DNA of 64,000 bases from an uncultured virus (IMG/VR IMGVR_UViG_3300028591_000111) (lineage: Duplodnaviria; Heunggongvirae; Uroviricota; Caudoviricetes), in the IMG/VR virus record IMGVR_UViG_3300028591_000111; one strand, 5' to 3'. The translations under genes and the position numbers were made by a program. Shown one piece after another: positions 13,595 to 48,574 of the stretch. The notes under the pieces were generated by a model, which was given only the letters and a program-made list of their open reading frames with translations, did no database searches and was not told the DNA's origin. Every line of letters starts with the position of its first letter. The first letter of the stretch is position 1.

Positions 13595-13760
13595 TCACAA
13601 TCCCATTCATATTTGTGAACTACCAACCCGCCTTGCGTGCGCTTTCGCATCGCGCATTAAAACGGGTTGGCTTCGGATGCAAGCATATCTCCATTTACAA
13701 GACTATTCTCATAAACGTGACACACAGTAAGTCCGCTATTCTCCACGTCCCGTAGATTCA
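13595..13760 (-). ncRNA. putative omega/reRNA of TnpB 1 (scaffold overlapping tnpB 3' end; guide = right flank AAATATGAATGGGATTGTGA)
   Basis: Motifs shared with element 2 (CGG.ACG..G.G.ATAGC...CTTACTGT...CTTGCA...GAAGCCA...TGGTAGTTCAC); position follows known TnpB biology; boundaries approximate. Confidence 0.7.
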
Positions 13761-14847
13761 ATACTCTTAATCCTTCTTTGAGGATATTTCTTGAGGCATT
13801 CAAGTCTCGATCATGCACTTCGCCACATTCTGGACAAATCCATTCTCGCACTTTTAAGCCTCGTAAGCCTTTAATAGACTCATTCTTATACCCACATCCA
13901 CTGCATAGCTGTGTACTTGGGTGAAAACGATCTATCTTGATTGTTTTTCGTCCATACCATTCTGCCTTGTATTCAAGCATAGAAACAAACTTACTAAAAC
14001 TAGCATCCGTAACCGATTTAGCTAGCTTTTTGTTTCGTTCCATACCTTTGACAGAAAGATCTTCCAAACAAAGCACTTGGTTTTCGTGAATAAGTTTGGT
14101 GGACAACTTCTGCAAAAAATCATTACGTTGATTCTTTATTTTCTGATAATACTTAGCAATTTTAATTCTAGCTTTTTCATGCCCTTTAGAACCTTTTTGT
14201 GTTCGAGAAAAAGCCCTCTGTTTTTTCGCTAATCTCTGTTCAGACTTACGAAAGTGTTTTGGCGCTTCTATTCTTGCCCCATCTGAACAAACAATAATGT
14301 CGTGCAATCCTAGGTCTATTCCCACAACTTTTTTAGTAGTGGGTAATACTTGATATTCCTCTATCTCACACAAAATAGATGCGTAATACTCGCCACTACG
14401 ATCTTTGCTTATTGTTGCTGTTAGTATCCTACCTTCAATTTCTCTGTGTTGAACAACTTTAACAGCACCAACCTTGGGTAATTGAAGTCTATTCCTTTTG
14501 AAATGGACTGCATTGTTGTTATTATCAGTGGTATAACTCCACCTGCATTTATGTTTCGATTTGAACTTTGGAAATCCTGCACTTGGCTCTTTGAAAAACT
14601 TGTCGTATGCTTCATTCAGATGTGCTTGTGCATTCTTCAAAGCACGACTGTCTGCTTTCTTCAAAAAATCATGCTCATCTTTGAGAGCTGAGTAGGTCTT
14701 TTTGGACTTCTGCTTTGTTTCTTTATAAACCTTGATCCTGTCGTCCAGTAGTTGGTTATAGACAAATCTTGCACAACCGATATTCTGGTTGATTTTCTCT
14801 GCTTGAGATGCAGTTGGATATAGTCTGTACTTGAATGCTTTATACAT
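13657..14847 (-). CDS. tnpB: RNA-guided endonuclease TnpB
   Basis: KAFKYRLYPT HTH; RuvC GIDLG / LEDL / DRDLNAS; CSGC-CPEC zinc ribbon. Confidence 0.95.
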   Translation of the reverse strand: MYKAFKYRLYPTASQAEKINQNIGCARFVYNQLLDDRIKVYKETKQKSKKTYSALKDEHDFLKKADSRALKNAQAHLNEAYDKFFKEPSAGFPKFKSKHKCRWSYTTDNNNNAVHFKRNRLQLPKVGAVKVVQHREIEGRILTATISKDRSGEYYASILCEIEEYQVLPTTKKVVGIDLGLHDIIVCSDGARIEAPKHFRKSEQRLAKKQRAFSRTQKGSKGHEKARIKIAKYYQKIKNQRNDFLQKLSTKLIHENQVLCLEDLSVKGMERNKKLAKSVTDASFSKFVSMLEYKAEWYGRKTIKIDRFHPSTQLCSGCGYKNESIKGLRGLKVREWICPECGEVHDRDLNASRNILKEGLRVLNLRDVENSGLTVCHVYENSLVNGDMLASEANPF

Positions 14848-14892
14848 GGTATTTAGCCTTGAATACTAGCCTAAATTGTCTCTTAGAGAGTG

Positions 14893-14945
14893 TGTGTGGC
14901 GGACGTTAGGCTGTACGTCTTTTCGGGAGCTACCCTAGCCACACA
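14893..14945 (-). promoter_or_regulatory. structured 5' leader (three-way junction) of tnpB 1
   Basis: TGTGTGGC/GCCACACA outer stem, GGG-TAGCT-CCC, GACGT-ACAGCCTA-ACGTC. Confidence 0.65.
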
Positions 14946-14951
14946 AGTGTA

Positions 14952-14981
14952 TAGATAGCATGGATTTGTTTTTTATTTCAA
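14952..14981 (-). promoter_or_regulatory. promoter of tnpB 1: TTGAAA-N18-TATCTA
   Basis: Same CTATCTA motif as upstream of structural genes. Confidence 0.6.
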
Positions 14982-15166
14982 GTGTTATTTATGTTTTATC
15001 TAAAAATAAATTATATTGCTCGCCTTACCCACGGGCTTCGTTAGACGTTAAAGCCTAGTGTGCTTGCGTCTCGCTTTTTTGTCAATACCAGCATACACTG
15101 TCCCAGAAAGTTTAACATCCATTTCTGGATTATACCTACTTAGAATCTCAATCAACTCTTTTATTT

Positions 15167-47111: not shown

Positions 47112-47250
47112 AAAACAATCATAAACAAAAAGTGAACTACCACGCACCTGAAGGTTGCGTGGCTTCTCGTGCAAGTTCATCACACACTGAAACAAGTTCA
47201 GCAGTTTGATGAACAGTAAGCGAGCTATCCCCTGCGTTCCGACGGTTCAA
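47112..47250 (-). ncRNA. putative omega/reRNA of TnpB 2 (guide = TTTTTGTTTATGATTGTTTT)
   Basis: Scaffold motifs shared with element 1; boundaries approximate. Confidence 0.68.
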
Positions 47251-48360
47251 TATCCTTAGACCTTCTTGGTCTATATTTATTGAGGCATTCAAATCTCTGT
47301 CGTGGACTTCACCACAACACGGGCACGTCCATTCCCTGACTTTCAATGATTTAATGCCTCTTATGCTTTTATTCTGGAACCCACAGCCTGAACATATCTG
47401 TGTGGATGGATAGAATCTGTCTATCTTAACTATCGTTCTACCATACCATTCAGATTTATATTCAAGCATATTCATAAACATGCTAAATGAAGCGTCAGCA
47501 ACGGATTTAGCGATGCAGTGATTTGCTTCCATACCTTTAACAGATAAGTCTTCTAAGCTAATCACTTGGTTTTCGCGAATAAGCTTAGTTGACAGTTTTT
47601 GCAAGAAATCTTTTCTCTGATTCTTTATTTTCTGGTGACATCGTGCAACTTTGATTCTTAGCTTTTCGTGATTCTTAGAATCTTTAACAGTCTTAGCAAA
47701 AGCACGCTGTCGCTTTGCTAATTTCTGTTCTGCCTTTCTAAAGAATTTAGGTGTTTGAACGCGTTGTCCATCAGAGCAGACAATAAAGTCATGCAGACCT
47801 AGGTCTATTCCAATATGCTTGTCTGTTTCTGGCAGTTTCTCTGGTTCTTTAACCTCACATAGCACTGAGGCATAATATTCACCACTGCGTTCGTGTGAAA
47901 TAACGACGGATTTGATTTCACCTTCGTGCTGTCTATGCTCAATAATTTTAACATAACCAACTTTAGGCAGTTTTAGCCTGTTGCCATCAAAGAATATAGT
48001 GCATTTTGAGTCTTTTGATTTTGTTTTCTGGTTATTCGTTTTATAGCTTAATCTTGAGTGTTTTTTAGATTTGAACTGAGGAAAACCAAAGTGTTCAGGA
48101 TTTTTGAAGAAATTCCTATATGCCTGTTCCAAATTCAGTTGTGCATTGGCAAGCGCTAGGCTGTCAACACTTTTCAGGAATGCTTTGTCGGCTTTGAAAC
48201 ATGCTGGTGTGACATGAAGAGTCTGCTTTGTTGCTTCATAATGCTTCGTTTTGGCATCAAGCATGAGATTATAGACCAGTCTTGCACAACCGATATTCTG
48301 GTTAATCTTGGTTTTCTGTGCTTTAGTTGGATATAATCTGAATTTGAAAGCCTTTAGCAT
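47137..48360 (-). CDS. tnpB: RNA-guided endonuclease TnpB
   Basis: KAFKFRLYPT; GIDLG / LEDL / DRDLNAS; CSGC-CPCC. Confidence 0.95.
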   Translation of the reverse strand: MLKAFKFRLYPTKAQKTKINQNIGCARLVYNLMLDAKTKHYEATKQTLHVTPACFKADKAFLKSVDSLALANAQLNLEQAYRNFFKNPEHFGFPQFKSKKHSRLSYKTNNQKTKSKDSKCTIFFDGNRLKLPKVGYVKIIEHRQHEGEIKSVVISHERSGEYYASVLCEVKEPEKLPETDKHIGIDLGLHDFIVCSDGQRVQTPKFFRKAEQKLAKRQRAFAKTVKDSKNHEKLRIKVARCHQKIKNQRKDFLQKLSTKLIRENQVISLEDLSVKGMEANHCIAKSVADASFSMFMNMLEYKSEWYGRTIVKIDRFYPSTQICSGCGFQNKSIRGIKSLKVREWTCPCCGEVHDRDLNASINIDQEGLRILNRRNAGDSSLTVHQTAELVSVCDELAREATQPSGAW

Positions 48361-48398
48361 GATGACTGATTCCTGACACAGATTCGTTTTGTTTTGGT

Positions 48399-48453
48399 TG
48401 TGAGGCGAGGAGGTGGATCAAACCTACATTCATCCCATCGGACTAGCCTTACA
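48399..48453 (-). promoter_or_regulatory. structured 5' leader (three-way junction) of tnpB 2
   Basis: TGTAAGGC/GCCTCACA outer stem, TCC-GATG-GGA, AGGT-TTGATCC-ACCT. Confidence 0.6.
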
Positions 48454-48459
48454 TTATTA

Positions 48460-48488
48460 TAGATAGCAAATTTATTTTGACGTTTCAA
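48460..48488 (-). promoter_or_regulatory. promoter of tnpB 2: TTGAAA-N17-TATCTA
   Basis: Same motif and spacing to the leader as element 1. Confidence 0.6.
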
Positions 48489-48574
48489 CCTGTTTTTGCT
48501 ATTTAACCCACGGGCTAAAGCCACGTGGGATTTCTTCATTTATGTTAAATAATAATTATTATAGAATTACATTT

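What the first reader, a model, noticed from the sequence alone, without database searches (positions are those of the whole stretch)
14848..14981. Shared three-way-junction 5' leader on both tnpB genes, with a loop complementary to each gene's own SD region
Seen (minus strand): both tnpB genes have CTATCTA, exactly 6 nt, then TGTnnGGC-TAG-[small hairpin]-linker-[second hairpin]-GCCnCACA (14945-14893; 48453-48399). Inner sequences differ but the architecture is the same. In element 1 the loop ACAGCCTA is complementary to TAGGCT (14873-14868) and AGGCT (14859-14855, at the SD position). In element 2 the loop TTGATCC is complementary to GGA(A)TCAG at the SD, with one bulge. Loop and target change together. 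Inference: a cis-acting translational switch or pseudoknot, or a processed antisense RNA like the P1 c4 / P4 CI RNAs, gating TnpB expression, separate from the 3' omega RNA. One outer-stem pair in element 2 is an A-C mismatch.
Basis: partly seen in the sequence, partly recalled or inferred. Interest (0 to 1): 0.75.

Follow-up and report, generated by a model that had tools for sequence, protein, structure and literature searches.

The report
Anti-ribosome-site leader RNA on tnpB genes
Both transposon nuclease (tnpB) genes of this phage start with a small three-armed folded RNA, a member of a catalogued but unexplained RNA family, whose loop matches the gene's own ribosome landing site and so most likely keeps the selfish nuclease at a low level.

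Summary
Element 1 (14945-14893, minus strand) is a three-way-junction RNA that passes Rfam's cut-off for int-alpA (RF02996; 41.8 bits against 35.8). Its second-hairpin loop (14914-14907) is complementary to two boxes downstream. Box 1 is 14873-14868. Box 2 is 14859-14855 and lies in the loop of a small hairpin that ends 1 nt before the tnpB start codon.

Across 15 related leaders all stems covary, and the loop-box 2 pairing changes on both sides at 5 of 5 positions. In 8 of 9 specificity classes the loop's best target is its own leader (1 of 200,000 permutations).

Element 2 (48453-48399) has the same design but is decayed. It gives no Rfam hit, has a broken outer-stem pair, and its loop match is not above chance.

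The cassette is not tnpB-specific. In related phages it also precedes two other TnpB lineages and two homing-endonuclease genes. Sampled gammaproteobacterial int-alpA members show the same loop/two-box logic.

Best reading: an anti-Shine-Dalgarno kissing-loop leader that limits translation. It works like P1 c4 / P4 CI RNA but is not a member of that family. Function, transcription start and cis versus trans action are untested.

Three earlier notes of this scan describe the same leader type on other DNA.

The parts
13615..15080 (-). Element 1: TnpB-only IS200/IS605-type element. Boundaries are inferred: left end follows a 5-nt target-like motif, right end closes with the 10-nt terminus shared by all relatives.
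   Evidence: Read. The shared right-end terminus is seen in 5 of 5 relatives printed. The boundaries restore a continuous 68-codon phage ORF. Inference.
14952..14981 (-). Promoter-like stretch: -35-like hexamer 14981-14976, 18-nt spacer, -10-like hexamer 14957-14952 inside the conserved box 14958-14952, then 6 nt to the first base of the outer stem.
   Evidence: The same hexamer pair lies 5-6 nt before P1 in 8 of 14 phage cassettes (17-nt spacer in 7, 18 in element 1), but scores only 8 of 12. The tool's promoter scan did not list it. Inference only.
14893..14945 (-). Three-way-junction RNA: P1 14945-14938 with 14900-14893; P2 hairpin 14935-14925; junction linker 14924-14920; P3 hairpin 14919-14902.
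   Evidence: Rfam int-alpA 41.8 bits. The minimum-energy fold gives this junction. P1 has changes on both sides at 5 of 8 pairs.
14907..14914 (-). P3 loop, 8 nt: the anti-ribosome-site (antisense) segment.
   Evidence: Complementary to both boxes. The kissing helix changes on both sides at 5 of 5 pairs.
14868..14873 (-). Box 1: first copy of the target, single-stranded, 6 nt complementary to the P3 loop.
   Evidence: A first site at -27 to -31 from the end of the aligned row (the start codon in 11 of the 15 rows) is present in 11 of 15 leaders.
14849..14866 (-). P4 hairpin (5 bp). Its 8-nt loop holds box 2 (14859-14855), the Shine-Dalgarno-like purines. The stem ends 1 nt before the start codon.
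   Evidence: P4 is 94.6% paired, with 3 of 5 pairs changing on both sides. Box 2 lies at -14/-15 in 13 of 15 leaders.
13657..14847 (-). tnpB of element 1, 396 aa.
   Evidence: Pfam OrfB_IS605, Cas12f1-like TNB and HTH_OrfB_IS605.
47132..48543 (-). Element 2: second TnpB-only element, intergenic. Boundaries inferred as for element 1.
   Evidence: Read. Same right-end terminus. Inference.
48399..48453 (-). Decayed three-way junction of element 2. It has an A-C mismatch in P1, an altered linker and a 4-bp P3. Loop is 48421-48415.
   Evidence: Own model R1 61.9 bits, but it was a seed sequence. No Rfam hit. 7 differences from the intact relative L084 lie inside the junction.
48358..48385 (-). Element 2 box 1-like (48385-48380), box 2-like (48373-48366) and start codon (48360-48358).
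   Evidence: One search finds no contiguous match of 5 nt or more. Duplex -4.3 kcal/mol, and 88 of 500 shuffled loops do as well. In L084 both boxes match 6 nt.
47137..48360 (-). tnpB of element 2, 407 aa, 61% identical to that of element 1.

Best explanation
Each tnpB mRNA begins, at or very near its 5' end, with a small three-way-junction RNA of the Rfam int-alpA family. The 8-9-nt loop of its third helix (P3) mimics an anti-Shine-Dalgarno sequence. It base-pairs with two short direct repeats further down the same leader.

Box 1 is single-stranded. Box 2 holds the Shine-Dalgarno-like purines in the loop of a weak hairpin (P4) that ends next to the start codon. The loop-loop (kissing) contact with box 2 hides the ribosome landing site and keeps TnpB translation low. 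Box 1 adds a second masking or competing site.

Shown: the fold, its family membership for element 1, the covariation of all helices and of the loop-box pairing, and the fixed geometry relative to the start codon.

Inferred: that the RNA starts at the junction, that pairing represses translation, and that it acts mainly in cis. Element 2 carries a mutationally weakened copy and is probably less repressed or unrepressed.
For: Fold and family:
- Rfam int-alpA at 14945-14880: 41.8 bits against cut-off 35.8, the only hit in the window.
- The minimum-energy fold is the three-way junction in 10 of 15 related cores.

Covariation on 15 leaders:
- 86.4% of cells are paired against 71.5% in shuffles (0 of 500 reach it).
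- Covariation score 0.469 against 0.216 (0 of 500).
- Slid controls give 34-45% paired.
- The loop-box 2 helix is 91.4% paired, with changes on both sides at 5 of 5 pairs.

Loop-box matches:
- 13 of 15 leaders have at least one Watson-Crick match of 5 nt or more between the P3 loop and their own leader. 11 of 15 have two, at fixed places.
- Among 9 loop classes, 8 loops bind their own leader best. Only 1 of 200,000 random loop-leader assignments reaches the observed energy sum.

General to the family (12 sampled gammaproteobacterial int-alpA loci):
- 10 of 12 have at least one loop-complementary box and 6 of 12 have two. The later box often lies 4-16 nt before a start codon.
- A flanking stem of 4 bp or more surrounds the last box in 6 of 10, against a null share of 0.22.

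RNA rather than DNA: G-U pairs occur at conserved stem positions, for example 5 of 15 rows at the P2 closing pair.
Against: - There is no expression or probing data.
- The promoter is weak by consensus: 8 of 12, not listed by the scan tool.
- One 151-nt contig of an RNA library spans 14830-14980. It crosses the predicted start, which fits read-through or DNA carry-over as well.
- Only about 9 independent loop classes exist, from a narrow group of phages. The alignment was seeded with the structure in mind, and P3 is only 64.9% paired in it because of register shifts.
- Element 2 and L269 do not show the pairing above chance.
- The role of box 1 is unexplained.
- Nothing separates cis from trans action.
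Confidence: 0.6

Rival explanations
1. The junction works mainly in trans, as the c4 RNA of P1 and the CI RNA of P4 do. It accumulates as a stable small RNA by processing or early termination. It then binds boxes 1 and 2 on all mRNAs that carry the same code. This would give copy-number control, or an immunity between copies of the same element, with a different code for each selfish gene.
For: - The architecture matches the Rfam C4 family seen on P4: outer stem, two hairpins, antisense segment in the second loop, targets on the same transcript.
- Two target sites per mRNA, as in P1 and P4 (recalled for P1).
- Cassettes within one phage genome carry mutually non-matching codes: own pairs -7.5 to -8.5 kcal/mol against cross pairs -0.7 to -5.4 for the four cassettes of G003.
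- L269 shares P1 and P2 with other cassettes but has a different P3 and boxes.
- Rfam types int-alpA as an sRNA gene.
Against: - No terminator-like site follows the junction on the minus strand at either element.
- No stand-alone junction without a downstream gene was found among 16 hits in 5 phage records.
- No convincing extra targets exist in the window.
- There are no data on a short RNA species.
- It is not exclusive of the cis reading.
Confidence: 0.2
2. A two-state switch. The P3 loop pairs either with box 1 (a decoy, ribosome site free, ON) or with box 2 (OFF). The conserved junction strands bind a ligand or protein, or co-transcriptional timing sets the choice.
For: - Two boxes of nearly equal complementarity lie at fixed spacing.
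- The junction strands are conserved from phages to Gammaproteobacteria, which simple ribosome-site masking would not need.
Against: No ligand, protein partner or alternative pairing was identified. The junction is very small. Nothing here tests a trigger.
Confidence: 0.12
3. The junction only stabilises the 5' end of the mRNA or insulates it. On this reading the loop-box matches are a by-product of Shine-Dalgarno-like composition.
For: - In the gammaproteobacterial members the loop and boxes are mostly plain anti-Shine-Dalgarno and Shine-Dalgarno-like strings.
- A 5'-terminal stem is a known stabiliser (established knowledge).
Against: - In the phage cassettes the codes depart from the Shine-Dalgarno consensus and still match at three sites each.
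- Permutation gives 1 of 200,000, and shuffled loops rarely do as well: 3-41 of 500 for eight classes.
Confidence: 0.05
4. A single-stranded DNA structure used in transposition of the IS200/IS605 element, or part of a self-splicing IStron.
For: - These elements move as single strands and use end hairpins (established knowledge).
- Element 1 sits inside a phage ORF.
Against: - The same cassette precedes homing-endonuclease genes and non-transposon genes of Gammaproteobacteria.
- Its geometry is tied to the start codon.
- The transposon end hairpins lie about 100 nt further out.
- No group I intron or any other Rfam family hits either leader at E <= 10.
Confidence: 0.02

Closest known systems
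Rfam int-alpA RNA motif (RF02996), from the Weinberg et al. 2017 survey (PMC5737381). The main text was searched and does not discuss the motif. The supplement could not be read.
   Same: Element 1 passes the family's gathering score over the full model. It shares the 8-bp outer stem, the 3-nt and purine-rich junction strands, the small first hairpin and a second hairpin with an 8-9-nt pyrimidine-containing loop. Sampled family members also have loop-complementary boxes downstream.
   Different: The context is tnpB and homing-endonuclease genes of AT-rich gut phages, not integrase/alpA neighbourhoods (the family's usual context is recalled from its name only). The loop and box codes have diversified away from the plain Shine-Dalgarno pair. 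The Rfam model stops after the first box and lacks box 2 and hairpin P4. Element 2 does not reach the family threshold.
P1 c4 / P4 CI antisense RNAs and their targets (Rfam C4 RF01695 and c4-a1b1 RF03163, clan CL00128)
   Same: A branched RNA with an outer stem and two hairpins. The antisense segment is in the second loop. It is encoded on the same transcript as its short targets, more than one target is present, and a ribosome site is masked (P4 hits; the mode of action is recalled from the P1/P4 literature).
   Different: No C4 hit in the window. The outer stem is 8 bp, not 17. Junction linkers are present. Only one loop is used. Both targets lie downstream. No evidence of RNase P processing or of action in trans.
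IS200 tnpA 5' UTR control: a stem-loop that sequesters the Shine-Dalgarno site plus the antisense RNA art200 (PMC4513863), and small RNAs derived from the 5' UTR (PMC5435999). Only the search listings and abstracts were seen.
   Same: Same transposon superfamily. A leader structure keeps a transposon gene's translation low.
   Different: That system controls tnpA, not tnpB. It uses a simple hairpin and a convergent antisense transcript. No sequence or family relationship was found.
Ribosome-site sequestration of phage T4 homing-endonuclease and intron ORFs. Recalled; the reviews PMC2988022 and PMC3014915 were seen only in a search listing.
   Same: Selfish nuclease genes inside phage genomes are held down at translation initiation by local RNA structure.
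   Different: T4 uses simple hairpins tied to promoter choice. It has no conserved portable three-way junction and no duplicated target.

Membership tests
Rfam int-alpA (RF02996) | Covariance-model score at or above the curated gathering score (35.8 bits) | tested here: met
   Element 1: 41.8 bits, full model 1-71, E = 3.1e-05. Element 2: no hit at E <= 10 in a 301-nt search, so not met for element 2.
Rfam int-alpA (RF02996) | Three-way junction with conserved junction strands and two hairpins closed by an 8-bp stem | tested here: met
   Alignment to the model consensus, minimum-energy folds, pair counts. Element 2 keeps the layout, with one P1 mismatch and an altered linker.
Rfam int-alpA (RF02996) | Purine box in the 3' tail of the model, complementary to the second-hairpin loop | tested here: inconclusive
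   In element 1 the model's tail aligns to a different short hairpin. The real box 1 lies about 20 nt further on. In 12 gammaproteobacterial members the box lies at model positions about 59-67.
Rfam int-alpA (RF02996) | Neighbourhood of integrase / alpA genes (implied by the family name; recalled) | tested here: not met
   The downstream gene is tnpB. In related phages it is other TnpB types or HNH/homing endonucleases.
Rfam C4 antisense RNA (RF01695; P1 c4, P4 CI) | Covariance-model hit | tested here: not met
   No C4 match in the window at gathering level or at E <= 10. The same search finds P4 CI at 74.9 bits.
Rfam C4 antisense RNA (RF01695; P1 c4, P4 CI) | Antisense loop complementary to short targets on the same transcript, one at a ribosome site | tested here: met
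   This is a likeness of mechanism, not membership.
Rfam C4 antisense RNA (RF01695; P1 c4, P4 CI) | Release as a stable small RNA by RNase P processing, and action in trans | not testable with these tools
   Only contigs of one RNA library were available, and they show no ends.
IStron (group I intron fused to IS200/IS605) | Group I ribozyme in the 5' part of the element | tested here: not met
   No intron family hit in the window. Only about 230 nt lie between the inferred left end and the start codon.

The most novel reading that the evidence does not exclude
The int-alpA fold is a general, portable and re-addressable control module for selfish genes. Each nuclease gene in a phage carries its own loop/box code. 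The freed junction RNA acts in trans on every copy with the same code, so that expression falls as the element or phage genome multiplies. This would be a c4-like heteroimmunity at the scale of single genes, with box 1 as a decoy that sets the threshold. Codes diversify under selection to avoid cross-talk, which would explain why three sites change together.
Probability: 0.22. Interest if true: 0.8.

Novelty: new variant of a known kind. Interest (0 to 1): 0.62.

Why it matters
TnpB nucleases are the ancestors of Cas12 and are used as genome editors. How their own expression is restrained in nature is little described. The searches here found no paper on a tnpB 5' leader or on the function of int-alpA.

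This locus gives a catalogued orphan RNA motif a concrete, testable mechanism. It extends the motif by two parts that the Rfam model lacks: box 2 and its presenting hairpin. It also shows the motif travelling with three TnpB lineages and with homing endonucleases in phages.

The naturally orthogonal loop/box codes could serve as compact translational off-switches. The decayed copy in element 2 is a natural comparison.

Tried and rejected
- Phage database megablast with both elements: no match. The window's own assembly is not held.
- Promoter/terminator scan: neither leader's putative promoter is listed, and no terminator follows the junction.
- Consensus scoring of promoter geometry: 9 or more of 12 in only 2 of 14 phage and 1 of 12 gammaproteobacterial cassettes, so the start site stays an inference.
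- Collection scan of viral contigs with a promoter-plus-junction pattern: 11 stretches. All were the same phage group or chance hits in coding DNA.
- E. coli CFT073 searched for int-alpA: none.
- Supplement of the 2017 survey: unreadable here.
- Search for other targets of the two loops before ORFs in the window: only scattered 6-mers, uninformative.
- RNA evidence: one metatranscriptome run kept as contigs covers parts of the element at depth 2-5. It cannot show ends, strand or level.
- My model R1 realigned the seeds as MAFFT had them, so P3 register shifts remain and box 1 could not be put in common columns. Box 1 rests on the script count alone.
- IStron and single-stranded-DNA readings were rejected (see rivals).
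- A first version of the loop-leader energy script did not run. The analysis was then done from the stored alignment.

Full report
**What is there**

The window is phage-like, with many short ORFs on the minus strand. It holds two TnpB-only IS200/IS605-type elements on that strand.
- Their TnpB proteins (396 and 407 aa) carry the HTH_OrfB_IS605, OrfB_IS605 and Cas12f1-like TNB domains and are 61% identical.
- By reading, I place element 1 at about 15080-13615 and element 2 at about 48543-47132.
- Each has an imperfect left-end hairpin. Each right end closes with the 10-nt terminus shared by all five relatives printed.

**Checking the observation**

Element 1:
- Its junction is the only match in the 64-kb window to any Rfam family at gathering level. 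The family is int-alpA, RF02996: 41.8 bits against 35.8, full model. It stays the only int-alpA match at E <= 10.
- Its leader folds far better than shuffles: z = -3.66, 0 of 200 as good.

Element 2:
- It gives no int-alpA match even in a 301-nt search at E <= 10.
- It folds no better than shuffles: z = +1.64, 190 of 200 at least as good.

**Relatives**

Searches with the TnpB protein returned 80 loci each from viral contigs, metagenome contigs and species-representative genomes.
- No bacterial or archaeal genome holds a full-length relative above about 52% identity.
- My covariance model R1 was built on 14 leaders. It hits 10 of these 240 loci. These are the loci whose TnpB is 61% or more identical to element 1's and whose gene start is held (L003-L008, L083-L085, L087). 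It hits 0 of the other 230.
- R1 is tuned to the phage version and could miss very divergent forms.

**The cassette is not tied to this tnpB**

I searched related phage records with the Rfam model and with R1. This found further copies before other genes, each with its own loop sequence and two matching boxes:
- A second TnpB type, L249, whose ORF is only 129 aa with the HTH_OrfB_IS605 domain. L263 precedes the same type of ORF (read only) and has a single box.
- A third TnpB-like protein, L269 (TNB domain, E = 9.8e-17).
- Two genes that match PHROG families named HNH or homing endonuclease: L247 (3.4e-19) and L252 (8.1e-55).
- A 53-aa ORF, L243.

One 77.7-kb phage (G003) carries four cassettes with four different codes.

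**Covariation**

On the 15-row alignment A4 with the structure I named:
- 86.4% of cells are standard pairs, against 71.5% in shuffles (0 of 500 reach it).
- The covariation score is 0.469 against 0.216 (0 of 500).
- Sliding the partners by 1-3 columns gives 34-45% paired.
- P1 has changes on both sides at 5 of 8 pairs and P4 at 3 of 5.
- The loop-box 2 helix has changes on both sides at 5 of 5 pairs and is 91.4% paired.
- P3 scores only 64.9%, because rows with loops of different length are out of register in this alignment.
- The alignment was seeded with this structure in mind, and the rows come from a narrow group of phages, so these figures overstate independence.

A script read the same rows and found P3 by algorithm:
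- 13 of 15 leaders have at least one Watson-Crick match of 5 nt or more between the P3 loop and their own leader.
- 11 of 15 have two matches, at -27 to -31 and at -14/-15 from the end of the row.
- Element 2 and L269 have none.

With one representative for each of 9 loop classes:
- 8 loops bind their own leader best, and 7 leaders are bound best by their own loop.
- 1 of 200,000 random assignments reaches the observed energy sum.
- Shuffled loops do as well in 3-41 of 500 trials for eight classes, in 219 of 500 for L269, and in 88 of 500 for element 2.

Box 2 lies in the 8-nt loop of a 5-bp hairpin (P4, 14866-14849) that ends 1 nt before the start codon. The contact with the P3 loop is therefore loop to loop.

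**Element 2 is a weakened copy**

Against its intact relative L084 (TnpB 86% identical), the 141-nt leader differs at 10 positions:
- 7 lie in the junction: the P1 pair, the P2 loop, the linker, three in the P3 stem and one in the P3 loop.
- 1 lies in box 1.
- 1 lies in the P4 arm next to the start codon.
- 1 lies in the promoter-like spacer.

In L084 both boxes match the loop over 6 nt. The same weakened leader stands at the start of the nearest held phage record (L262).

**The family at large**

In a sample of 151 genomes of the class of a gammaproteobacterial MAG, int-alpA passes its cut-off in 11. Among 12 loci taken from them:
- 10 have at least one box of 5 nt or more complementary to the P3 loop, and 6 have two. 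The later box often lies 4-16 nt before the start of an ORF.
- A stem of 4 bp or more flanks the last box in 6 of 10, against a null share of 0.22.
- Loop and boxes differ together there too, for example in L292 and L293.

The Rfam model ends after the first box, so box 2 and P4 are additions to the catalogued motif. The downstream proteins are of varied length and were not classified.

**Comparison with c4 / CI**

On phage P4 the same Rfam search finds C4 (74.9 bits) at the CI RNA, and the families isrK and c4-a1b1 nearby.
- The C4 consensus has a 17-bp outer stem and two adjacent hairpins, the second with a 12-nt loop.
- The design is the same as here, but the window has no C4 hit.
- The stems and junctions also differ, and only one loop is used here.

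It works like c4/CI but is not a member of that family.

**Transcription**

- The pair of hexamers with 17-18-nt spacing, lying 5-6 nt before P1, recurs in 8 of 14 phage cassettes. It scores only 8 of 12 against the consensus. The scan tool did not list it, and the gammaproteobacterial members give no clear promoter.
- One metatranscriptome run, kept as contigs, holds a 151-nt piece over 14830-14980 with no differences. It crosses the predicted start at about 14946. This may be read-through from the phage gene upstream or DNA in the library, and it settles nothing.
- DNA contigs of two other runs carry a variant whose only change in the P3 loop (14913) is at a position that pairs with neither box.

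**Mechanism and verdict**

The best-supported reading is an anti-Shine-Dalgarno kissing-loop leader that limits TnpB translation.
- The fold and the pairing are shown by comparison of sequences.
- Repression, the start site and the role of box 1 are inferred.
- Trans action like c4/CI and a two-state decoy switch remain open and are not exclusive.

No paper on the function of int-alpA or on a tnpB 5' leader turned up. A 2026 review of the OMEGA system mentions only IStron ribozymes in 5' regions (passages seen).

Three earlier notes of this scan, on other genomes, describe the same kind of leader and agree with this reading. I reached it before seeing them. One of them speaks of a terminator after each leader. 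None is detected at the two leaders here.

Noticed in passing
window 15170-15081 and 13614-13498 (minus strand): Element 1 splits a small phage ORF. 30 codons lie before the inferred left end and 39 codons (with the stop) after the right end, in the same frame, so a precise excision would leave a 68-aa ORF. No empty-site joint was seen in the four runs laid.
   Followed up: partly
window 15085-15081 and 48548-48544; right ends 13624-13615 and 47141-47132: Both elements follow a similar 5-nt motif that differs at one base. Both end in the same 10-nt terminus after a right-end hairpin. This fits the target-adjacent motif and guide-RNA end of IS200/IS605 elements. No tnpA gene is present in either element.
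   Followed up: partly
L243 and L252 upstream regions: The conserved box before the junction recurs further upstream as its reverse complement, forming an inverted repeat. This may be an operator for a phage regulator rather than, or as well as, a -10 element.
   Followed up: no
L249:1589-1975 and L263 (G004, G002): A second TnpB type with the same cassette. In L249 the ORF stops after 129 aa, so it is probably truncated or frameshifted. L263 has only one box.
   Followed up: no
L269 (G005:4923-5030): This cassette shares P1 with element 1 and P2 with L008 but has a different P3 and different boxes. Three copies of a short repeat lie before the start codon. This suggests module shuffling between cassettes.
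   Followed up: no
window 14892-14878 (minus strand): A short extra hairpin lies between P1 and box 1. It is present only in the class of leaders to which element 1 belongs. The Rfam model's 3' tail aligns here instead of to box 1.
   Followed up: no
L281 (phage P4) 8615-8705: On P4 the Rfam families isrK and c4-a1b1 overlap just upstream of the CI RNA. This is a reminder that Rfam files the target sites of c4-type RNAs as a separate family.
   Followed up: no
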